Shown here: positions 55,421 through 61,021 of the stretch, piece after piece
Position numbering within the stretch: the stretch's first letter is position 1
How the letters are laid out: the number at the start of each line of letters is the position of its first letter
Source of the DNA: the human T2T-CHM13v2.0 reference genome, Homo sapiens
DNA: 64,000 nt
Direction: 5' to 3' (one strand)
Assembly (NCBI RefSeq): GCF_009914755.1
Contig: NC_060931.1
Notes under the pieces: model-generated
Databases searched by the model: none
Told to the model about the DNA's origin: nothing
The model's input: the letters and a program-made list of their open reading frames with translations, nothing else
Position numbers and translations under genes: made by a program

Positions 55421-56175
55421 GTAAGTTCTTAGCAAAATCCATGACCTTTTCCTTTATCTTCTGGACTCTCAGTGTGACTGATGAAAGTTACCACATGCTC
55501 TGCAGGGGGAAATGGTTTAGCATGTATTACTACGTCTTAATCACATCTTTGTAAAGCCAGGAGCATTTTGAAAGTCACGTTACAGACATTGTTTAAACAT
55601 AGTCTGTATTTACCAAAGTATAGGACATTGTATCATCTCGTATTAATTAGTTAGTCGGCTCAAAATTAGTGCTAATGACTTAGTAATTCAGTGATTTCTG
55701 TTAGCTTTAAAACCTTTATTTCAGAACTATTTCACCTCTTGGTTTTCATTTTTGCTGTGCGTCACTGCCTGCCGGCTGCTAATTTATTAACTCCCAGTGA
55801 ATCGTGTCCTGTGAAGGGACTGAATATTAGTGGCAAATTATGTTGATGATTTGTATTTTGAATAAATAGTTTGAATACATAGAACATTAAGCTTGTATAC
55901 ATTTTGAAAATAGTATTTTAATATTCTACTGTGTCATAGTCACAACGATTGGATATATATTGAATTTATATGTACTTTAAGTTGTTATATGTTTATGGTC
56001 TTTAGCATTCTAACATGCAATTGTGTATCTGTTAAGTCTTATTTTTTTTTCAAGATTACACTCTGATTTATTGAGGCATCTGTTTGATGCCACATTAAGT
56101 GGCCCAGGCTTTGTGTAGGGGTTGAGGTTAAAGCAGGAAGAAGGGTGGTGAGAGGCAGGGGTACCAGGATTAGGT

Positions 56176-56226
56176 TGGAATACCTGGGGGTGCTCTGAGG
56201 CTCTGGAATACCTGGGGGTGCTCTGA
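56176..56226 (+). repeat. Tandem duplication, 28-bp period (TGGAATACCTGGGGGTGCTCTGA x2)
   Basis: Direct reading. Confidence 0.9.
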
Positions 56227-56506
56227 AGTTTCCCTGGTCTTGGCCGGCTGTGCTGCTGGCCAAGGCATCTGATGGGCCTGCAAGGTGGTCCAGGGGCTAG
56301 GGCAGGGACTTTGGAGTCACGCCGTTGGCTTTGAATCCAGACTCCTACACTTGGTAGCTGTGAACTCTCCATGCCTCAGGGACCTGCAGAACTGAGCTCT
56401 GTCTGAGCCAGTTTCCATCCAGGCACTGCGCATCCATCCAGAGGGGCACTGCCTCAGGTTGCTCACTATTCACTGCCTTCTCAAGCAGACCCTTGTCTCC
56501 TTCTAG

Positions 56507-56638
56507 GCCCTCACAATCCAGTGGAGGAGACGAAACTCATCTGCCTCTGTCCCTCTGGGCACGCTTCATGCCAGGTGCATCTGTGGACAGGGGCCATGCT
56601 CCTGGGCTTCCAAAGTTGGAGAAAGCTGCCAGGCTCAG
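56507..56638 (+). other. Candidate non-coding neo-exon (132 nt)
   Basis: ccttgtctccttctag|GCCCTC ... GCTCAG|gtgggt. Confidence 0.55.
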
Positions 56639-57958
56639 GTGGGTACATCACAGCAGCTGCTGCCCTCTGGACACAGTGACAAAAGAACACTCTGGGCCTG
56701 GAGCCGTGGTCTGGGGCATTGGGCAAGGCTGTTGCACTTCTCTGAGCCCATTTCCCCATCTGGAAAGTGCACTGATTGTATCTCCCTGTGGGCACTGAGG
56801 GCTCAGTGTTAGTTTGAGAGCCAGCATCTGGGGTTTGGGCTGTAATTCCCCGTCAGCCCCATAGCTGCGGGGAACCAGGGACTTTGTTGGGATTACCCTA
56901 GGCATCAGTTTAGCTTCCTGTCCCTGGCTTGGGCTCAGCACCTGAAGTAGTCTAGGGGGTAGGTGGTCCTGGTGGGGGCTGGGGCTTTTCCCCAGACTGA
57001 GGTCACACCCAGAGCCAGAAATCTTGGTGCCTGCTCTGGGCAAAGGTGCCAGCCTGTGCGACAAGAGCGAAACTCCGTCTCCAAAACAAAAACAAAAAAC
57101 CTTGCATCATTTCAAGGGGCTCACACCTCCCTAAGGGCCTGGTAATTGGCTGGCTCTGGCCTGCATCTAGCCCCGAGGGTGTAGGTAACACCCCACCTTA
57201 CCTGGTTTCTTCCTGCCAGGGCCAATCTTCAGACCTCAGGACTTTGCAGCCTATCCCACCTCCCCTCTGGCCAGCCTCGAGCCGTTGTGGGTCCAGCACT
57301 TTTTCCAGGCTGTCTCCTGGTTGTCCTTCTGCCTTGAGGCCTGGCTCATGCTGCTCCCCTTCCCACTCACCAAGACCCACAAGGACCACTCCACACCCAG
57401 CTCAGCCCCATCCCCTCAGATAGTCCTCTCTCTTTCCTCAGGTGGCCAGGTGCATATCTTGGTGTGAGGACCTTCACTGTATCTGGGAATGCCTACTGGT
57501 CACCTCGGTGACAGAGACCAAGGCATTTACCTGATATGAGTGTCTTGGTTCATTGTCTACATGGCTAGGGAGGGAGTCAATAATAGGCTTTTCACTTGCT
57601 GCAAGGGCCGGTTCTCCTGGCCCCATGGCTCTAGGGATGGAGGACACTGCAGGAGATGCACCGCTCACTTCCCAGCTGAGGACTGTGGGTCATCTCAGGG
57701 CGATTTCACAGTCCCCACATGCCCCACCCCCTCAGCTCTGCAAATACCAAGCAGCGCAGCCTGCCTAGGGGATGATGGGCTCGAGAGTGCCCAGGTAGTG
57801 CCCAGAGTGCCCTTGGCAGGCCCCTCACCTAGCTGCTTCCACAGCTCTGTAGCAAGAGTTCTAAACTTTTTTGACCGTGAAGTCTGCTGAGAATAAGAGC
57901 TGTGGACTGTTTTCCCAGAAAGGCATGTATGTGCTCTCCACACAAAACCTTTCATTGT

Positions 57959-59825
57959 GGCCAAGCACAGTGGCTCATGTAATCCCAGAACTTTGGGAGG
58001 CAGAGCCATTCGGATCACCTGAGGTCAGGAGTTCAAGACCAGCCTGCCCAACATGACGAAACCCTGTCTCTACTAAAAATACAAAAAATTAGCCAGGTGT
58101 GGTGGCAGCCACCTGTAATCCCAGCTACTCCGGAGGCTGAGGCAGGAGAATCACTTGAACCCGGGAGGCGCAGGTTGTAGTGTGGTGAGATCACGCCACT
58201 GCACTCCAGCCTGGGCGACAGGAGCGAAACTCTGTCTCAAAAAACAAAACAAAACAAAGCCTTGCATCCTTTCAGGGGGCTCACACCTCCCTAAGGGGCC
58301 AGTAATTAAACCCCTTGGGCCTGAGGGTGAGAAACTTTGTCTCAGTTCTTCCCCGAGTGATCAGCCCAGGGGTAAGGAAGGAGAAGCCAGAAAGCAGGAC
58401 CCATGAGAAGGGCCCACTCCTGGAGTTTGAGGCCCACTCCCTCCTGCCCCTGCCTCTCCTCTGTCCAGGACTCCTCCCTGCTCTGCCCCACTCCTGGGGC
58501 CATAACCATGGGGAGCTGTGGTTTTCTACAGGCTCCTGGGCACAAAGTGGGCAGGCTCACCTGGAGGCGATCAGAGCAACATGGCAGGAAGTGAGGGGGA
58601 AAGCCGCCCTGGAACTGCGCCTCTCTGCCCCCTGACGTCGCTGGCGTGCACTCCTCCCTCCCCTCACTCAGGCAGTGGCAAGAGTTCCATGTGAGCACTG
58701 TCCTGCTCCCTCTGCTGCCCTTTTTTTTTCTTGGGGCTACCATAACACTCCCTTCCCCAGCCCTGCCAACCTGGTGGGACATTGGGCTTCCCTCTCACAG
58801 GGTCCTGGGGACAGGCCCATCCTTTATCATACCCACAGAGAGACCCCTTTTTTTCTTCAGGACCTGGGGAGCAGCCAGGTTCCATGAGTTAAATGCAGAT
58901 CTGAACCAAGCTGGGACTGGGGTACACACTCTCCTCTGCTGAAAAGTAGCTAGGGATTCCAACTAGGTGAGAAGGAGAGTGGGGCAGAGCCAGACCAGAC
59001 AAGGACTGATCACCTGGAAAAAGCCTGCCATCAAAGGTCTTGGCAAATGCTGGGTGCAGTGGCTCACTCCTGTAATCCCAGCACTTTGGGGGGCTGAGAC
59101 AGGTGGACTACTTGAGGCAAGGAGTTCGAGTCCAGCCTGGGCAACATGGCAAAACCCCATCTCTACTAGAAATACAAAAATTAGCTAGGCATGCTACACT
59201 CCTGTAATCCCAGCTACTCAGGAGGCTGAGGCAGGAGAATCACTTGAACTGGGGAGGCGGAGGTCGAAGTGAGCCGAGATTGTGTCCCTGCACTCCAGTC
59301 TGGGAGACAGAGTGAAACTAGGCCTCAAAAAAAAAAAAAAAAAAAAAAGAATATGGCCTTGGCAGAGAGGGGCCAGCCCGGCAGTGCCTTCCCTTGGGTT
59401 TCTCCTGGGTAGGCCTCTGCCATGAGGAGGCGCTTCCTTCTGCCTGTCCATGGCCCACAGCAATGGAATGTCTGCTTCTAGGGGTTGGGTGGGAGACTGC
59501 TGGCAGAACTGGAAACCTTCAGGTGGGGTTTTTTTGTTTTGTTTTGTTTTCGAGATGGAGCACCGCTCTGTCACCCAGGCTGGAGTGCAGTAGTGGAATC
59601 TCAGTTCACTGCAACCTCCGCCCCCCTGAGTTCAAACAATTCTCCTGTCTCAGCCTCCTGAGTAGCTGAGATTACAGGCATGTGCCACCATGCCCGGCTA
59701 TTTTTTGTATAGATGGCATTTCGCCATGTTGGCCAGGCTGGTCTCGAACTCCTGACCTCAAGTGATCCACCAACTTCGGCCTCCCAAAGTGCTGGGATTA
59801 CAGGCATGAGCCACTGAGCCCAGCC
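57959..59825. mobile_element. Alus inside the composite: +57959-58258, +59048-59349, -59529-59825
   Basis: Alu bodies with tails/TSDs. Confidence 0.9.
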
Positions 59826-59854
59826 CCTTCAGGGGGTTTTGAGGCTTCACTACA

Positions 59855-60283
59855 ATACTAGTTTCCTGTGGCTGCTGCAACAAATTACCACACACTTAGT
59901 AACTTAAAACAACCAAAATGTATTCCCTTACAGGTCTGAAGGCCAGAATTCTACAGTAAGTCCTACTGAGTCAAGGTGGGAGCAGGGTCGGTGGCTTCTG
60001 AGGCTCTGTGGGAGAATCTGTTTCCTGGCCGTGGAGGTGGCCTGCACTCCTCAGCTTGTGCTGCCCGTCTCGAATGACTGGAGTTTCCTGCTTCTGTCAC
60101 TACACCTCCCACCCTCTCCATCACCTGCTCTGCTCTTATAAGGATCTGGGTGAGTACATCAACCCCAACAGCCAAAGACCCTTAACTTCATTATATCTGC
60201 AAAGCCCCTTTTGCCATATAAGGTCATGTTCACCAGTTCCCGGGATTAGGATATGGGCATCTTGGGGACATCAGCCTGCTACA
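59855..60283 (-). mobile_element. MLT1 (MaLR) LTR, MLT1C/D-like
   Basis: 'tagtttcctgtggctgctgcaacaaattacc...cttaacttcattatatctgcaaagcccc...ggattaggatatggg'. Confidence 0.85.
59934..60149 (+). other. Candidate non-coding neo-exon (216 nt) in antisense MLT1
   Basis: tattcccttacag|GTCTGA ... ATCTGG|gtgagt. Confidence 0.55.
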
Positions 60284-60407
60284 GCTAGGCTGCAAAACTA
60301 TTACACCCTCCTGGTGTTTCAATGATTGGGAGAAAAAGGGTTGGCATTTTTTGCTTAGGGGTCCCTCTTAAACTTATATCTGTAAGGTCTGGGGTCCCTC
60401 TTAACCT

Positions 60408-60703
60408 TGTGTTTGTTTTTGTTTTTTTGAGGTGGAGTCTTGCTCTGTCATCCAGGCCGGCAGTGGCGTGGTCTTGGCTCACTGCAACGTCTGCCTCCTG
60501 GGTTCAAGTGATTCTCTTGCCTCAGCCTCTTGAGTAGCTGGGGCTACAGGCTATATGCCCTGCTGTTTTGTATTTTTGGTAGGGACGGGGTGGGGGTGGG
60601 GCTAGGGAGGGGGTTTTGGCTATGTTGCCCTGAGCTCAAAGCGATCCGCCTGCCTCTGCTGCCAAAGTGCTGGGATTACAGGCCTGCACCACTGCACCCG
60701 GCT
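60408..60703 (-). mobile_element. Rearranged Alu at 5' end of the composite, with a G-rich non-Alu insert
   Basis: Minus strand starts (C)AGCCGGGTGCAGTGG one base after the TSD. Confidence 0.85.
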
Positions 60704-61021
60704 GCTGTAAAGTCTTATTTCACACAGCTGAGACATGTTTTAGGAAGTTTGCTGAAAGACTCCTGGAGACCTCCTCGTTGTGACCTCCCTGTTATTGTGT
60801 CTAATTTGATTGAACTTTTCTGCCCTCCTGCTTTTCAGCTTCTCTAATAGTCTCTCATTAAACCAATTCTAAGAACCACCAAAAAAGGGAAATCTTTTTT
60901 TGAAAGCAGTAAAATGATATGGACTGTTAGAATGTAAAATATATGAAATAAGTCATTATATGTTAGTGCTGCTCTGACATAGGGACGTATTATTGAGAAT
61001 CAACTTTTGCTTGATTTTCAG

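What the first reader, a model, noticed from the sequence alone, without database searches (positions are those of the whole stretch)
56029..60720. 4.7-kb Alu-headed, polyadenylated, TSD-flanked composite insertion inside a GTF2I intron
Seen, on the minus strand: TSD AAATAAGACTTTACAG (60720-60705), then one base later the exact 5' start of an Alu and its tail. About 4.3 kb of GC-rich DNA foreign to the AT-rich intron follows (MLT1 LTR, three Alus, unique sequence). It ends with AATAAA (56072-56067, in an L2-tail-like motif), 16 nt, a short A tail, and the second TSD copy AAATAAGACTTAACAG (15/16 identical). This looks like a very long Alu-led 3' transduction, which is not expected: a Pol III T5 terminator lies ~70 nt past the Alu (60333-60337). 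Two models: (a) a Pol II transcript starting at the Alu was retrotransposed whole; (b) an orphan transduction or unspliced retrocopy integrated into the A tail of a pre-existing Alu, which is more parsimonious.
Basis: partly seen in the sequence, partly recalled or inferred. Interest (0 to 1): 0.8.

Follow-up and report, generated by a model that had tools for sequence, protein, structure and literature searches.

The report
Alu plus truncated ANKRD54 processed pseudogene
The odd 4.7-kb insert is the leftover tail of an old retro-copied ANKRD54 messenger RNA sitting behind an Alu in a GTF2I pseudogene intron, which is an ordinary kind of genomic fossil and not a new way for Alu to carry DNA.

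Summary
On the minus strand there is a direct repeat, then a full-length Alu, about 4.35 kb of GC-rich DNA, AATAAA, 16 nt, an A run, and the repeat again.

The three GTF2I-type loci at 7q11.23 have the site empty, with one repeat copy. So the block is a real insertion into the pseudogene lineage.

It is not an Alu-led 3' transduction. Window 60406-57541 is collinear with the last exon (3' UTR) of ANKRD54 on chr22, which has no Alu upstream. An early-branching paralog on chr10 keeps the whole structure: repeat, the same Alu, A-rich tail, 15 nt of filler, then spliced ANKRD54 exons starting 101 nt after the ATG.

The window and 20 other copies share a 1.3-kb deletion that removed the coding part. 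Three Alus and a 115-bp duplication were added later. The last 1.5 kb, which carries the poly(A) signal, has no other copy in this genome.

It remains open whether the Alu and the retrocopy arrived in two hits (retrocopy into a young Alu's A tail, about 55%) or in one chimeric event (about 33%). In 0 of 17 other copies is the T of AAAT present, so the ancestral repeat is securely only 12 bp.

This is an ordinary feature of low interest.

The parts
60705..60720 (-). 5' copy of the target-site duplication (secure core 60705-60716, AAGACTTTACAG), followed by one extra C at 60704
   Evidence: Single copy AAATAAGACTTTACGG in 3 of 3 GTF2I-type loci. Present before the Alu in 22 of 22 non-parent loci that hold the 5' flank.
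60407..60703 (-). Full-length Alu with A-rich tail (tail 60407-60428). It lacks 18 nt that the neighbouring Alu at 59824-59530 has.
   Evidence: sequence. Cross-matches to other Alus. The same Alu with the same internal gap is in the chr10 paralog.
57541..60406 (-). Remnant of an ANKRD54 processed pseudogene: 3'-UTR part of the last exon, collinear with C22:38293044-38291096 (minus strand) at 76-80% identity.
   Evidence: Gene identity.
59530..59824 (-). Later Alu insertion with its own repeat CCCC[C/A]CCTGAAG; absent from chr22 and from the chr10 paralog
59049..59351 (+). Later Alu insertion, antisense to the retrocopy; absent from chr22
57959..58258 (+). Later Alu insertion, antisense to the retrocopy; absent from chr22 and from the older copies L014-L016
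57047..57161 (-). 115-bp duplicate of 58206-58320 (flank plus end of the Alu above); found only in the young copy group, absent from L014-L016
   Evidence: (families D6, D9)
56051..57540 (-). 'Orphan' 3' part of the insertion, 1.5 kb, ending in the poly(A) signal. It has no counterpart at ANKRD54 or anywhere else in the assembly outside this pseudogene family.
   Evidence: no match in C22:38270001-38310000. No Pfam match for the 5 longest of 24 listed frames. No A run at the break.
56067..56072 (-). AATAAA poly(A) signal, 16 nt before the A run
   Evidence: conserved in 17 of 17 other copies that hold this junction
56042..56050 (-). Short A tail (9 A here; about 10-16 in other copies)
56029..56044 (-). 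3' copy of the target-site duplication (secure core 56029-56040, AAGACTTAACAG)

Best explanation
**What it is.** The block is what remains of an ANKRD54 processed pseudogene joined behind a full-length Alu. Both lie inside one pair of target-site duplications in an intron of the GTF2I-derived pseudogene GTF2IP13.

**Sequence of events.**
1. A partial GTF2I copy arose (shown).
2. Within roughly the first fifth of the time since then, an Alu inserted by LINE-1 target-primed reverse transcription and made the AAGACTT[T/A]ACAG duplication (inferred).
3. A spliced ANKRD54 mRNA with a long read-through 3' UTR, polyadenylated after a distal AATAAA, was reverse-transcribed into the A tail of that Alu in the same orientation. 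It was 5'-truncated 101 nt after its ATG (structure shown; order inferred).
4. After the chr10 copy split off, a 1.3-kb deletion ran from the Alu tail to an A-rich spot in the 3' UTR. It removed all coding exons and left the state seen here (shown).
5. Three Alus and a 115-bp duplication were added (shown).
6. The locus was copied to about 15 further, mostly subtelomeric, sites (shown).

The insert has no evident function of its own.
For: **Empty site.** 3 of 3 GTF2I-type loci (C7:74.38, 75.93, 76.42 Mb) carry one copy of the repeat and no insert. Their nearby Alu is a different one, 32 bp downstream, with its own AAAGAAC repeat. Exons beside the site in L011 read as TFII-I (best PDB match is General transcription factor II-I, E 0.005).

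**Donor.** Window 60393-57545 aligns in four collinear pieces to C22:38293026-38291099 at 76-80%. The three internal Alus are absent there, and no Alu hit lies between 38293026 and about 38294013. Inspection extends the match to 60406 and 57541. Exon 1 of that gene is 100% identical to human ANKRD54. The stop codon and last exon were mapped.

**Spliced origin.** The chr10 copy aligns to chr22 in 7 blocks across 14.6 kb. The joins are seamless at AG/GT borders.

**Shared deletion.** 20 of 22 non-parent loci that hold the 5' flank (L014-L019 plus 14 young copies) have the window's Alu-tail/UTR junction. L020 has the full form. L033 has its own larger deletion. A further locus, L024, lacks this part. 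On the flank tree the 13 sampled deletion-bearing rows form one group apart from chr10 and the parents (94/94).

**Timing.** Three-point K2P gives duplication: insertion: chr10 split of about 1: 0.87: 0.78. That leaves room for two hits.

**Two hits preferred.** This rests on base rates argued from general knowledge: A tails are favoured LINE-1 nick sites, and nested insertions are far commoner than chimeras. It is not a test made here.
Against: - No copy with the Alu alone exists. 22 of 22 non-parent loci with the 5' flank have the Alu, and all that reach the next junction also have ANKRD54-derived DNA. So the two parts are never seen apart.
- No second, inner target-site duplication can be recognised around the retrocopy.
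- The structure meets the published features of one-event chimeric retrogenes (passage read in PMC2104539).
- The last 1.5 kb is not at ANKRD54 today. The 'single long 3' UTR' therefore needs an unobserved later loss at chr22.
- The nick site (top strand GAAAT/AAGAC) is not the canonical TT/AAAA.
Confidence: 0.55

Rival explanations
1. One-event chimera. During a single LINE-1 reverse transcription primed at the target nick, the enzyme copied the polyadenylated ANKRD54 mRNA up to 101 nt after its ATG. It then switched (or had been given, by RNA ligation) an Alu RNA as template and copied it to its first base. Alu and retrocopy thus entered together under one target-site duplication. The later deletion, Alus and duplications happened as in the best explanation.
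For: - One repeat pair bounds the whole. Both parts are absent from 3 of 3 parent-type loci and are together in every daughter copy, including the earliest-branching one.
- The Alu is full length and sense-oriented, the mRNA part is 5'-truncated, and they are joined tail to head with 15 nt of filler.
- These are features (i), (ii), (iv) and (v) listed for chimeric retrogenes (passage read in PMC2104539).
- 452 Alu/LINE-1 chimeras with full-length, mostly sense Alus, mostly from early primates, are reported in PMC13174262 (section 12 read).
Against: - The interval in which both parts arrived is not short, at about a fifth of the age of the duplication, so co-occurrence is weak evidence.
- Chimeras are rare next to nested insertions into A tails (general knowledge; no count made here).
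- The retained Alu tail and the 15-nt filler are equally expected for a 5' junction of an ordinary second insertion.
Confidence: 0.33
2. Alu-led 3' transduction. A transcript that started at an Alu in a donor locus ran through more than 4 kb of downstream DNA and was retrotransposed whole.
For: The Alu starts one base after the repeat, and the block ends in AATAAA plus an A tail. The parent site is empty.
Against: - The only homolog outside the pseudogene family is the ANKRD54 last exon, with no Alu hit between 38293026 and about 38294013 upstream.
- In the chr10 copy the DNA behind the Alu is spliced ANKRD54 coding sequence beginning inside exon 1. That cannot be genomic read-through from an Alu.
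- The present Alu/UTR adjacency is a secondary deletion junction.
Confidence: 0.02
3. The block is native to the ancestral GTF2I intron and was precisely deleted in the lineage leading to GTF2I and its two 7q11.23 copies.
For: Only that the three parent-type loci are near-identical (K2P 0.003). They therefore count as one witness.
Against: - The parent keeps exactly one copy of the repeat, with uninterrupted flanks.
- The block has a poly(A) signal, an A tail and a spliced source gene elsewhere.
- A deletion would have to restore the pre-insertion site to the base.
Confidence: 0.01

Closest known systems
LINE-1-generated processed pseudogenes (retrocopies of spliced mRNAs)
   Same: Introns are absent (seen in the chr10 paralog). 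There is 5' truncation, a poly(A) signal and an A tail. The repeat is 12-16 bp. The site is empty in the parent paralog.
   Different: In this window no coding exon is left; only 3'-UTR sequence survives. The 3' UTR is far longer than the stretch up to the first AATAAA in the gene today (C22:38292511). Its last 1.5 kb is missing from the source locus. A full Alu lies inside the same repeat pair.
Chimeric retrogenes and Alu/LINE-1 chimeric insertions (Buzdin/Gogvadze type; PMC2104539 passages, PMC13174262 sections 12 and 19 read)
   Same: A full-length, sense-oriented small RNA copy at the 5' end, a 5'-truncated polyadenylated copy at the 3' end, and one repeat pair around both. The age is early primate.
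   Different: The 3' partner is a cellular mRNA, not LINE-1. One-event origin is not shown here; it is only not excluded. There is a 15-nt filler at the junction.
3' transduction by LINE-1 or SVA (read-through into flanking DNA)
   Same: A mobile element at the 5' end, followed by unique DNA that ends at a downstream poly(A) signal, all inside one repeat pair.
   Different: The unique DNA is spliced and comes from a gene with no such Alu upstream. Alu, a Pol III unit, is not known to transduce kilobases (general knowledge). The defining donor test failed.
Nested retroelement insertions into Alu A tails
   Same: The second element sits directly behind the Alu tail in the same orientation. The outer repeat then belongs to the Alu.
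   Different: No inner A-rich repeat can be told apart from the tails, and no Alu-only copy survives to prove the order.

Membership tests
LINE-1-mediated (target-primed) retrotransposed insertion | Short direct repeat of target DNA at both ends that is single-copy at the empty site | tested here: met
   (2 hits against 0.02 expected). One copy in 3 of 3 GTF2I-type loci.
LINE-1-mediated (target-primed) retrotransposed insertion | A tail at the 3' end next to the repeat, preceded by a poly(A) signal | tested here: met
   AATAAA, 16 nt, A9. Kept in 17 of 17 other copies holding this junction.
LINE-1-mediated (target-primed) retrotransposed insertion | Endonuclease-type nick site (TT/AAAA on the top strand) | tested here: inconclusive
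   The parent site reads GTGTGGAAAT/AAGACTT, or GG/AAAT if the repeat is 16 bp. It is A-rich but not canonical.
Processed pseudogene of ANKRD54 | Collinear with the exons of the source gene, introns missing | tested here: met
   Chr10 paralog: 7 exon blocks joined at splice borders, one exon missing. The window itself keeps only last-exon (3' UTR) sequence.
Processed pseudogene of ANKRD54 | Source gene identified | tested here: met
   The chr22 exon 1 peptide is 100% identical to human ANKRD54 isoform X3. The 88 hits that carry a source name are all named ANKRD54.
Processed pseudogene of ANKRD54 | The whole insert up to the A tail matches the source transcript | tested here: not met
   Window 57540-56051 has no match at chr22:38270001-38310000 or elsewhere outside the family.
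Alu-led 3' transduction | Donor locus has the same Alu directly upstream of the transduced DNA | tested here: not met
   No Alu hit between C22:38293026 and about 38294013. The full-form paralog has ANKRD54 exon 1 behind the Alu.
Alu-led 3' transduction | Transduced DNA is unspliced genomic sequence continuous with the element | tested here: not met
   The sequence is spliced. The present junction is a secondary deletion.
Bipartite chimeric retrogene (features i-v of PMC2104539) | (i) The 5' part is a full-length copy of a cellular RNA | tested here: met
   The Alu begins one base after the repeat in the window and in chr10. That this is the first Alu base rests on comparison with other Alus in the window and on recall of the consensus.
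Bipartite chimeric retrogene (features i-v of PMC2104539) | (ii) The 3' part is 5'-truncated; (iv) same orientation, directly joined; (v) flanked by short direct repeats | tested here: met
   Homology starts at C22:38305751, 101 nt after the ATG at 38305852. Orientation is sense-sense with 15 nt of filler. The repeat pair is as above.
Bipartite chimeric retrogene (features i-v of PMC2104539) | Both parts integrated in one event | not testable with these tools
   The event is only bounded: both are absent in the parents and both present in all daughters. The interval is about a fifth of the age. Outgroup primate genomes are needed.

The most novel reading that the evidence does not exclude
The insert is a single-event tripartite chimera. 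LINE-1 reverse transcriptase began on an unknown polyadenylated RNA (the 1.5-kb orphan, whose gene is no longer in the genome). It jumped into the 3' UTR of ANKRD54 mRNA at the point matching C22:38291096, then jumped again onto an Alu RNA. All three parts lie under one intact 12-16-bp target-site duplication. A passage read in PMC2104539 says the two human tripartite elements known then lacked recognisable flanking repeats, so this would be a clean human example.
Probability: 0.06. Interest if true: 0.45.

Novelty: new member of a known kind. Interest (0 to 1): 0.17.

Why it matters
The finding removes an apparent anomaly. There is no evidence here that an Alu can carry kilobases of flanking DNA.

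It also shows how a later deletion can disguise a processed pseudogene as an 'Alu-headed' composite. One early-branching paralog was enough to reveal the original structure.

**Annotation.** GTF2IP13 and its roughly 15 near-identical, mostly subtelomeric copies contain an unrecognised ANKRD54-derived retrocopy remnant. Two predicted GTF2IP13 exons lie in it, antisense.

**Other uses.**
- The element is a dated marker for the branching order of this duplication family.
- It is a candidate Alu/mRNA chimera for anyone cataloguing such events.
- The orphan 1.5 kb hints at a lost or replaced stretch downstream of ANKRD54.

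Tried and rejected
- **Donor search with the last 1 kb.** It found only family copies and a 52-bp chance hit on chr4, so no donor for the 3' part.
- **Parent Alu.** Reading the sequence showed a different Alu, 32 bp away, with its own repeat. I dropped that reading.
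- **33-nt repeat at the junction.** I considered whether the tandem repeat at the Alu/block junction (D11) marks an integration event. It is an old tandem repeat already present in the ANKRD54 3' UTR.
- **Splice junction at 57541.** There is no GT at the chr22 break, and the window keeps GTAAAT after its AG. Rejected.
- **ANKRD54 poly(A) site at 57541.** There is no AATAAA or ATTAAA nearby and no A run in any copy. Rejected.
- **Nature of chr22 DNA after the break.** The 479 bases after the break are single-copy, so they are not a recognisable later repeat insertion.
- **Coding potential of the orphan.** The 5 longest of 24 listed frames gave no Pfam family.
- **A possible third repeat copy.** I looked for one between the Alu tail and the retrocopy in the chr10 paralog, which would prove two hits. 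About 9 of 13 bases match with gaps. That is too weak to use.
- **Earlier findings.** This source was closed to the session.
- **Buzdin 2003 (PMC169886).** The paper is not held. Its content is cited only through passages of PMC2104539 and the reference list of PMC13174262.
- **Print searches.** The search for ANKRD54 + pseudogene + GTF2I found 1 unrelated paper. The search for ANKRD54P1 found 0.
- **Loci not examined.** Five further partial copies seen (C7:64.896, 64.906, 57.108, 57.118 Mb; C11:50.35 Mb) were not fetched or examined.

Full report
**1. Observation**

Read on the minus strand, the window shows the following, in order:
- AAATAAGACTTTACAG at 60720-60705, then one C.
- An Alu from 60703, with an A-rich tail at 60428-60407.
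- About 4.35 kb of DNA with 50-62% GC. The flanks have 30-43%.
- AATAAA at 56072-56067, 16 nt, and nine A.
- AAATAAGACTTAACAG at 56044-56029.

The repeat finder lists the pair at 94% identity (D19). The 12-bp core occurs twice in the 64 kb, at exactly these two places. The expectation is 0.02, and 0 of 100 shuffles reach two.

One correction comes from the paralogs. In 0 of 17 other copies that hold the 3' junction is the T of 'AAAT' present. The ancestral duplication is therefore securely only 12 bp, AAGACTT[T/A]ACAG. The 16-bp match is partly a private change in the A run of this copy.

**2. It is an insertion, and the parent site is empty**

Searches of the window's own assembly with the two flanks found three kinds of locus:
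- About 16 copies at 95-98% identity. Most are subtelomeric; others are at chr4 (two), chr10:38 Mb and chr7:129.9 Mb.
- Older copies at 77-88% identity, at chr7:56.3, 66.3, 67.0, 67.7, 68.1 and 77.5 Mb and at chr10:46.0 Mb.
- Three near-identical loci at chr7:74.38, 75.93 and 76.42 Mb, at 79-83% identity.

The exons beside the site in the 75.93-Mb locus are intact and read as TFII-I (best PDB match 'General transcription factor II-I', E 0.005). That these three loci are GTF2I and its two 7q11.23 pseudocopies is inferred from position and recall.

In all three the repeat is present once (AAATAAGACTTTACGG) and the flanks run on without a break. These loci do have an Alu nearby, but it is a different one. 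It lies 32 bp downstream with its own AAAGAAC repeat, and the window has that site empty.

All 22 non-parent loci that hold the 5' flank carry the head Alu at the same base.

**3. The donor is ANKRD54**

Unique pieces of the block each gave one hit outside the family, on chr22. A sensitive local alignment gives four collinear pieces:
- Window 60393-59837 with C22:38293026-38292424.
- Window 59532-59356 with C22:38292427-38292257.
- Window 59043-58254 with C22:38292263-38291474.
- Window 57954-57545 with C22:38291486-38291099.

All are on the chr22 minus strand at 76-80% identity. The three internal Alus of the window are absent from chr22.

By inspection the match runs from 60406 to 57541. At the 5' end it starts at a 33-nt tandem repeat that is already in chr22. 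At the 3' end the older copies still read GAACCAAAGGC like chr22.

Upstream of this stretch chr22 has no Alu hit for about 950 bp.

**4. The chr10 paralog shows what the insert originally was**

In the chr10:46.03-Mb copy, the same repeat and the same Alu (with the same 18-nt internal gap) are followed by a 34-nt A-rich tail and 15 nt of unassignable filler. Then comes 1.3 kb that aligns to chr22 in seven blocks spread over 14.6 kb:
- 38305751-38305546
- 38301868-38301830
- 38300231-38300132
- 38294837-38294790
- 38294716-38294590
- 38294379-38294266
- 38293653 onward

The joins fall at AG/GT borders of chr22 and are seamless in the copy. One coding exon is missing, through either a skipped-exon isoform or a later loss.

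The first block lies in an open frame that starts at an ATG at 38305852. That peptide is 100% identical to human ankyrin repeat domain-containing protein 54, and the 88 hits that carry a source name are all named ANKRD54.

The last exon starts at 38293653 and the stop codon is near 38293575. The window's block therefore begins about 530 nt into the 3' UTR and keeps no coding sequence. The chr10 copy is the only spliced ANKRD54 copy in the assembly.

**5. How the window's form arose**

The Alu-tail/UTR junction of the window is shared by 20 other loci (L014-L019 and 14 young copies). L033 (chr1:223.18 Mb) has a larger private deletion, from the same tail to about window 56200. L020 has the full form.

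On a maximum-likelihood tree of the 5' flank, 16 loci plus the window were sampled. The 13 deletion-bearing rows form one group separated from chr10 and the parents (support 94/94). One deletion of about 1.3 kb explains the pattern. It ran between the Alu's A tail and the A-rich end of the first 33-nt unit.

Several features were added later:
- The Alu at 59824-59530, which has its own repeat and is absent from chr22 and chr10.
- The Alu at 59351-59049, absent from chr22.
- The Alu at 58258-57959, absent from chr22 and from L014-L016.
- The 115-bp duplicate at 57161-57047, absent from L014-L016.

**6. Timing**

K2P distances on the flank and on the shared UTR segment, resolved by three-point branch lengths under a clock, give a rough order. 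Duplication from GTF2I, insertion, and the chr10 split fall at about 1: 0.87: 0.78. These are rough figures from short alignments with different base composition.

Both the Alu and the retrocopy entered in an interval of about a fifth of the age of the duplication. I give no absolute date.

**7. Mechanism**

The following points are shown:
- Entry was through an RNA intermediate (spliced exons, poly(A) signal, A tail).
- The insert is bounded by a target-site duplication, with an empty paralogous site.
- The donor gene has no Alu in the corresponding place.

Chr22 reads T4 there.

Two ways remain of bringing the Alu and the retrocopy under one repeat pair:
- **(b') Two hits.** The Alu came first, then ANKRD54 cDNA entered its A tail.
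- **(c) One event.** Template switching or RNA ligation produced a chimera of the kind described for U6/LINE-1, Alu/LINE-1 and other RNAs. I read passages of PMC2104539 and sections 12 and 19 plus passages of PMC13174262.

The structure meets listed features (i), (ii), (iv) and (v) of such chimeras. Against (b'), no Alu-only copy exists and no inner repeat can be seen. Against (c), the time interval is long enough for two hits, and nested insertions into A tails are, from general knowledge, much commoner than chimeras.

I put (b') at about 0.55 and (c) at about 0.33.

**8. What stays unexplained**

Window 57540-56051 (1.5 kb) carries the AATAAA that was used, yet it has no counterpart at chr22:38270001-38310000 or anywhere else outside the family.
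- The break has no A run and no splice-donor signature.
- The chr22 DNA beyond the break is single-copy.
- The 5 longest of the orphan's 24 listed frames match no Pfam family.

The simplest reading is a distal part of an ancestral ANKRD54 3' UTR that was later lost at chr22. The alternative is a third RNA in a tripartite chimera. Outgroup genomes would decide between them.

**9. Comparison with what is known, and verdict**

This is a processed pseudogene nested with, or fused to, an Alu. It was later truncated and then spread by segmental duplication.

GTF2IP13 at 7p has been described as the ancestral copy of the subtelomeric duplication families (passages of PMC6226469). I found no print mention of an ANKRD54 retrocopy there. 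The search for ANKRD54 + pseudogene + GTF2I gave 1 unrelated paper, and the search for ANKRD54P1 gave 0. Supplements and gene-annotation tables were not searched.

It is a new member of a known kind, of low general interest. Its value is mainly that it corrects an attractive but wrong reading.

Noticed in passing
L011:1259-1560 (C7:75.93 Mb) and the same place in L012, L013; window 56005-56000 region: The GTF2I-type loci carry their own Alu 32 bp downstream of the insertion site, with a 7-bp AAAGAAC repeat. The window has that site empty, so this Alu entered the GTF2I lineage after the pseudogene split off.
   Followed up: yes
L033 (C1:223175500-223178300): A young copy (about 96% to the window) has lost about 4.2 kb. 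Its head-Alu tail runs straight into the sequence matching window ~56200, next to the 23-bp perfect tandem repeat at 56176-56198 / 56204-56226.
   Followed up: partly
window 56507-56638 and 59934-60149 (+ strand): Two predicted GTF2IP13 exons from the hub's table lie inside the insert, antisense to the ANKRD54-derived sequence. One is in the orphan part and one in the LTR-like part of the old 3' UTR. The retrocopy has therefore supplied exon material to the pseudogene's transcripts.
   Followed up: no
window 57047-57161 vs 58206-58320: A 115-bp stretch (unique flank plus the first 50 nt of the antisense Alu's end) is copied about 1.16 kb downstream. It is present only in the young copy group, and the mechanism is unclear.
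   Followed up: partly
L020 (C10:46026500-46034700), locus about 6300-6280: The chr10 ANKRD54 retrocopy lacks one internal coding exon, between the blocks matching C22:38300132 and 38294837. It also has a 5'-truncated Alu of its own inserted at the point matching C22:38292475. Its homology to the family ends near window 59515.
   Followed up: partly
window 60560-60625 (minus strand): The head Alu of the window's copy group has a C-rich expansion in its middle A-rich region (CCCTCCCTAGCCCCACCCCCACCCCGTCCC). The chr10 copy of the same Alu lacks it. All copies share an 18-nt gap relative to the neighbouring Alu at 59824-59530.
   Followed up: no
window 55311-55420: The GTF2I-derived exon (DDDYSPP...) has a 1-nt deletion relative to the intact exon in L011, which shifts the frame. 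This fits pseudogene status.
   Followed up: partly
C22:38291045-38290850 (L022): Just past the point where homology to the retrocopy ends, the ANKRD54 downstream region has a roughly 42-bp unit repeated about three times (CTCAGTGGTCCCTGAGCTGGCTGGACTGGGCAGGATAGAGAG). It also has a 13-nt direct repeat GCCATGTAGACAG bracketing the break.
   Followed up: no
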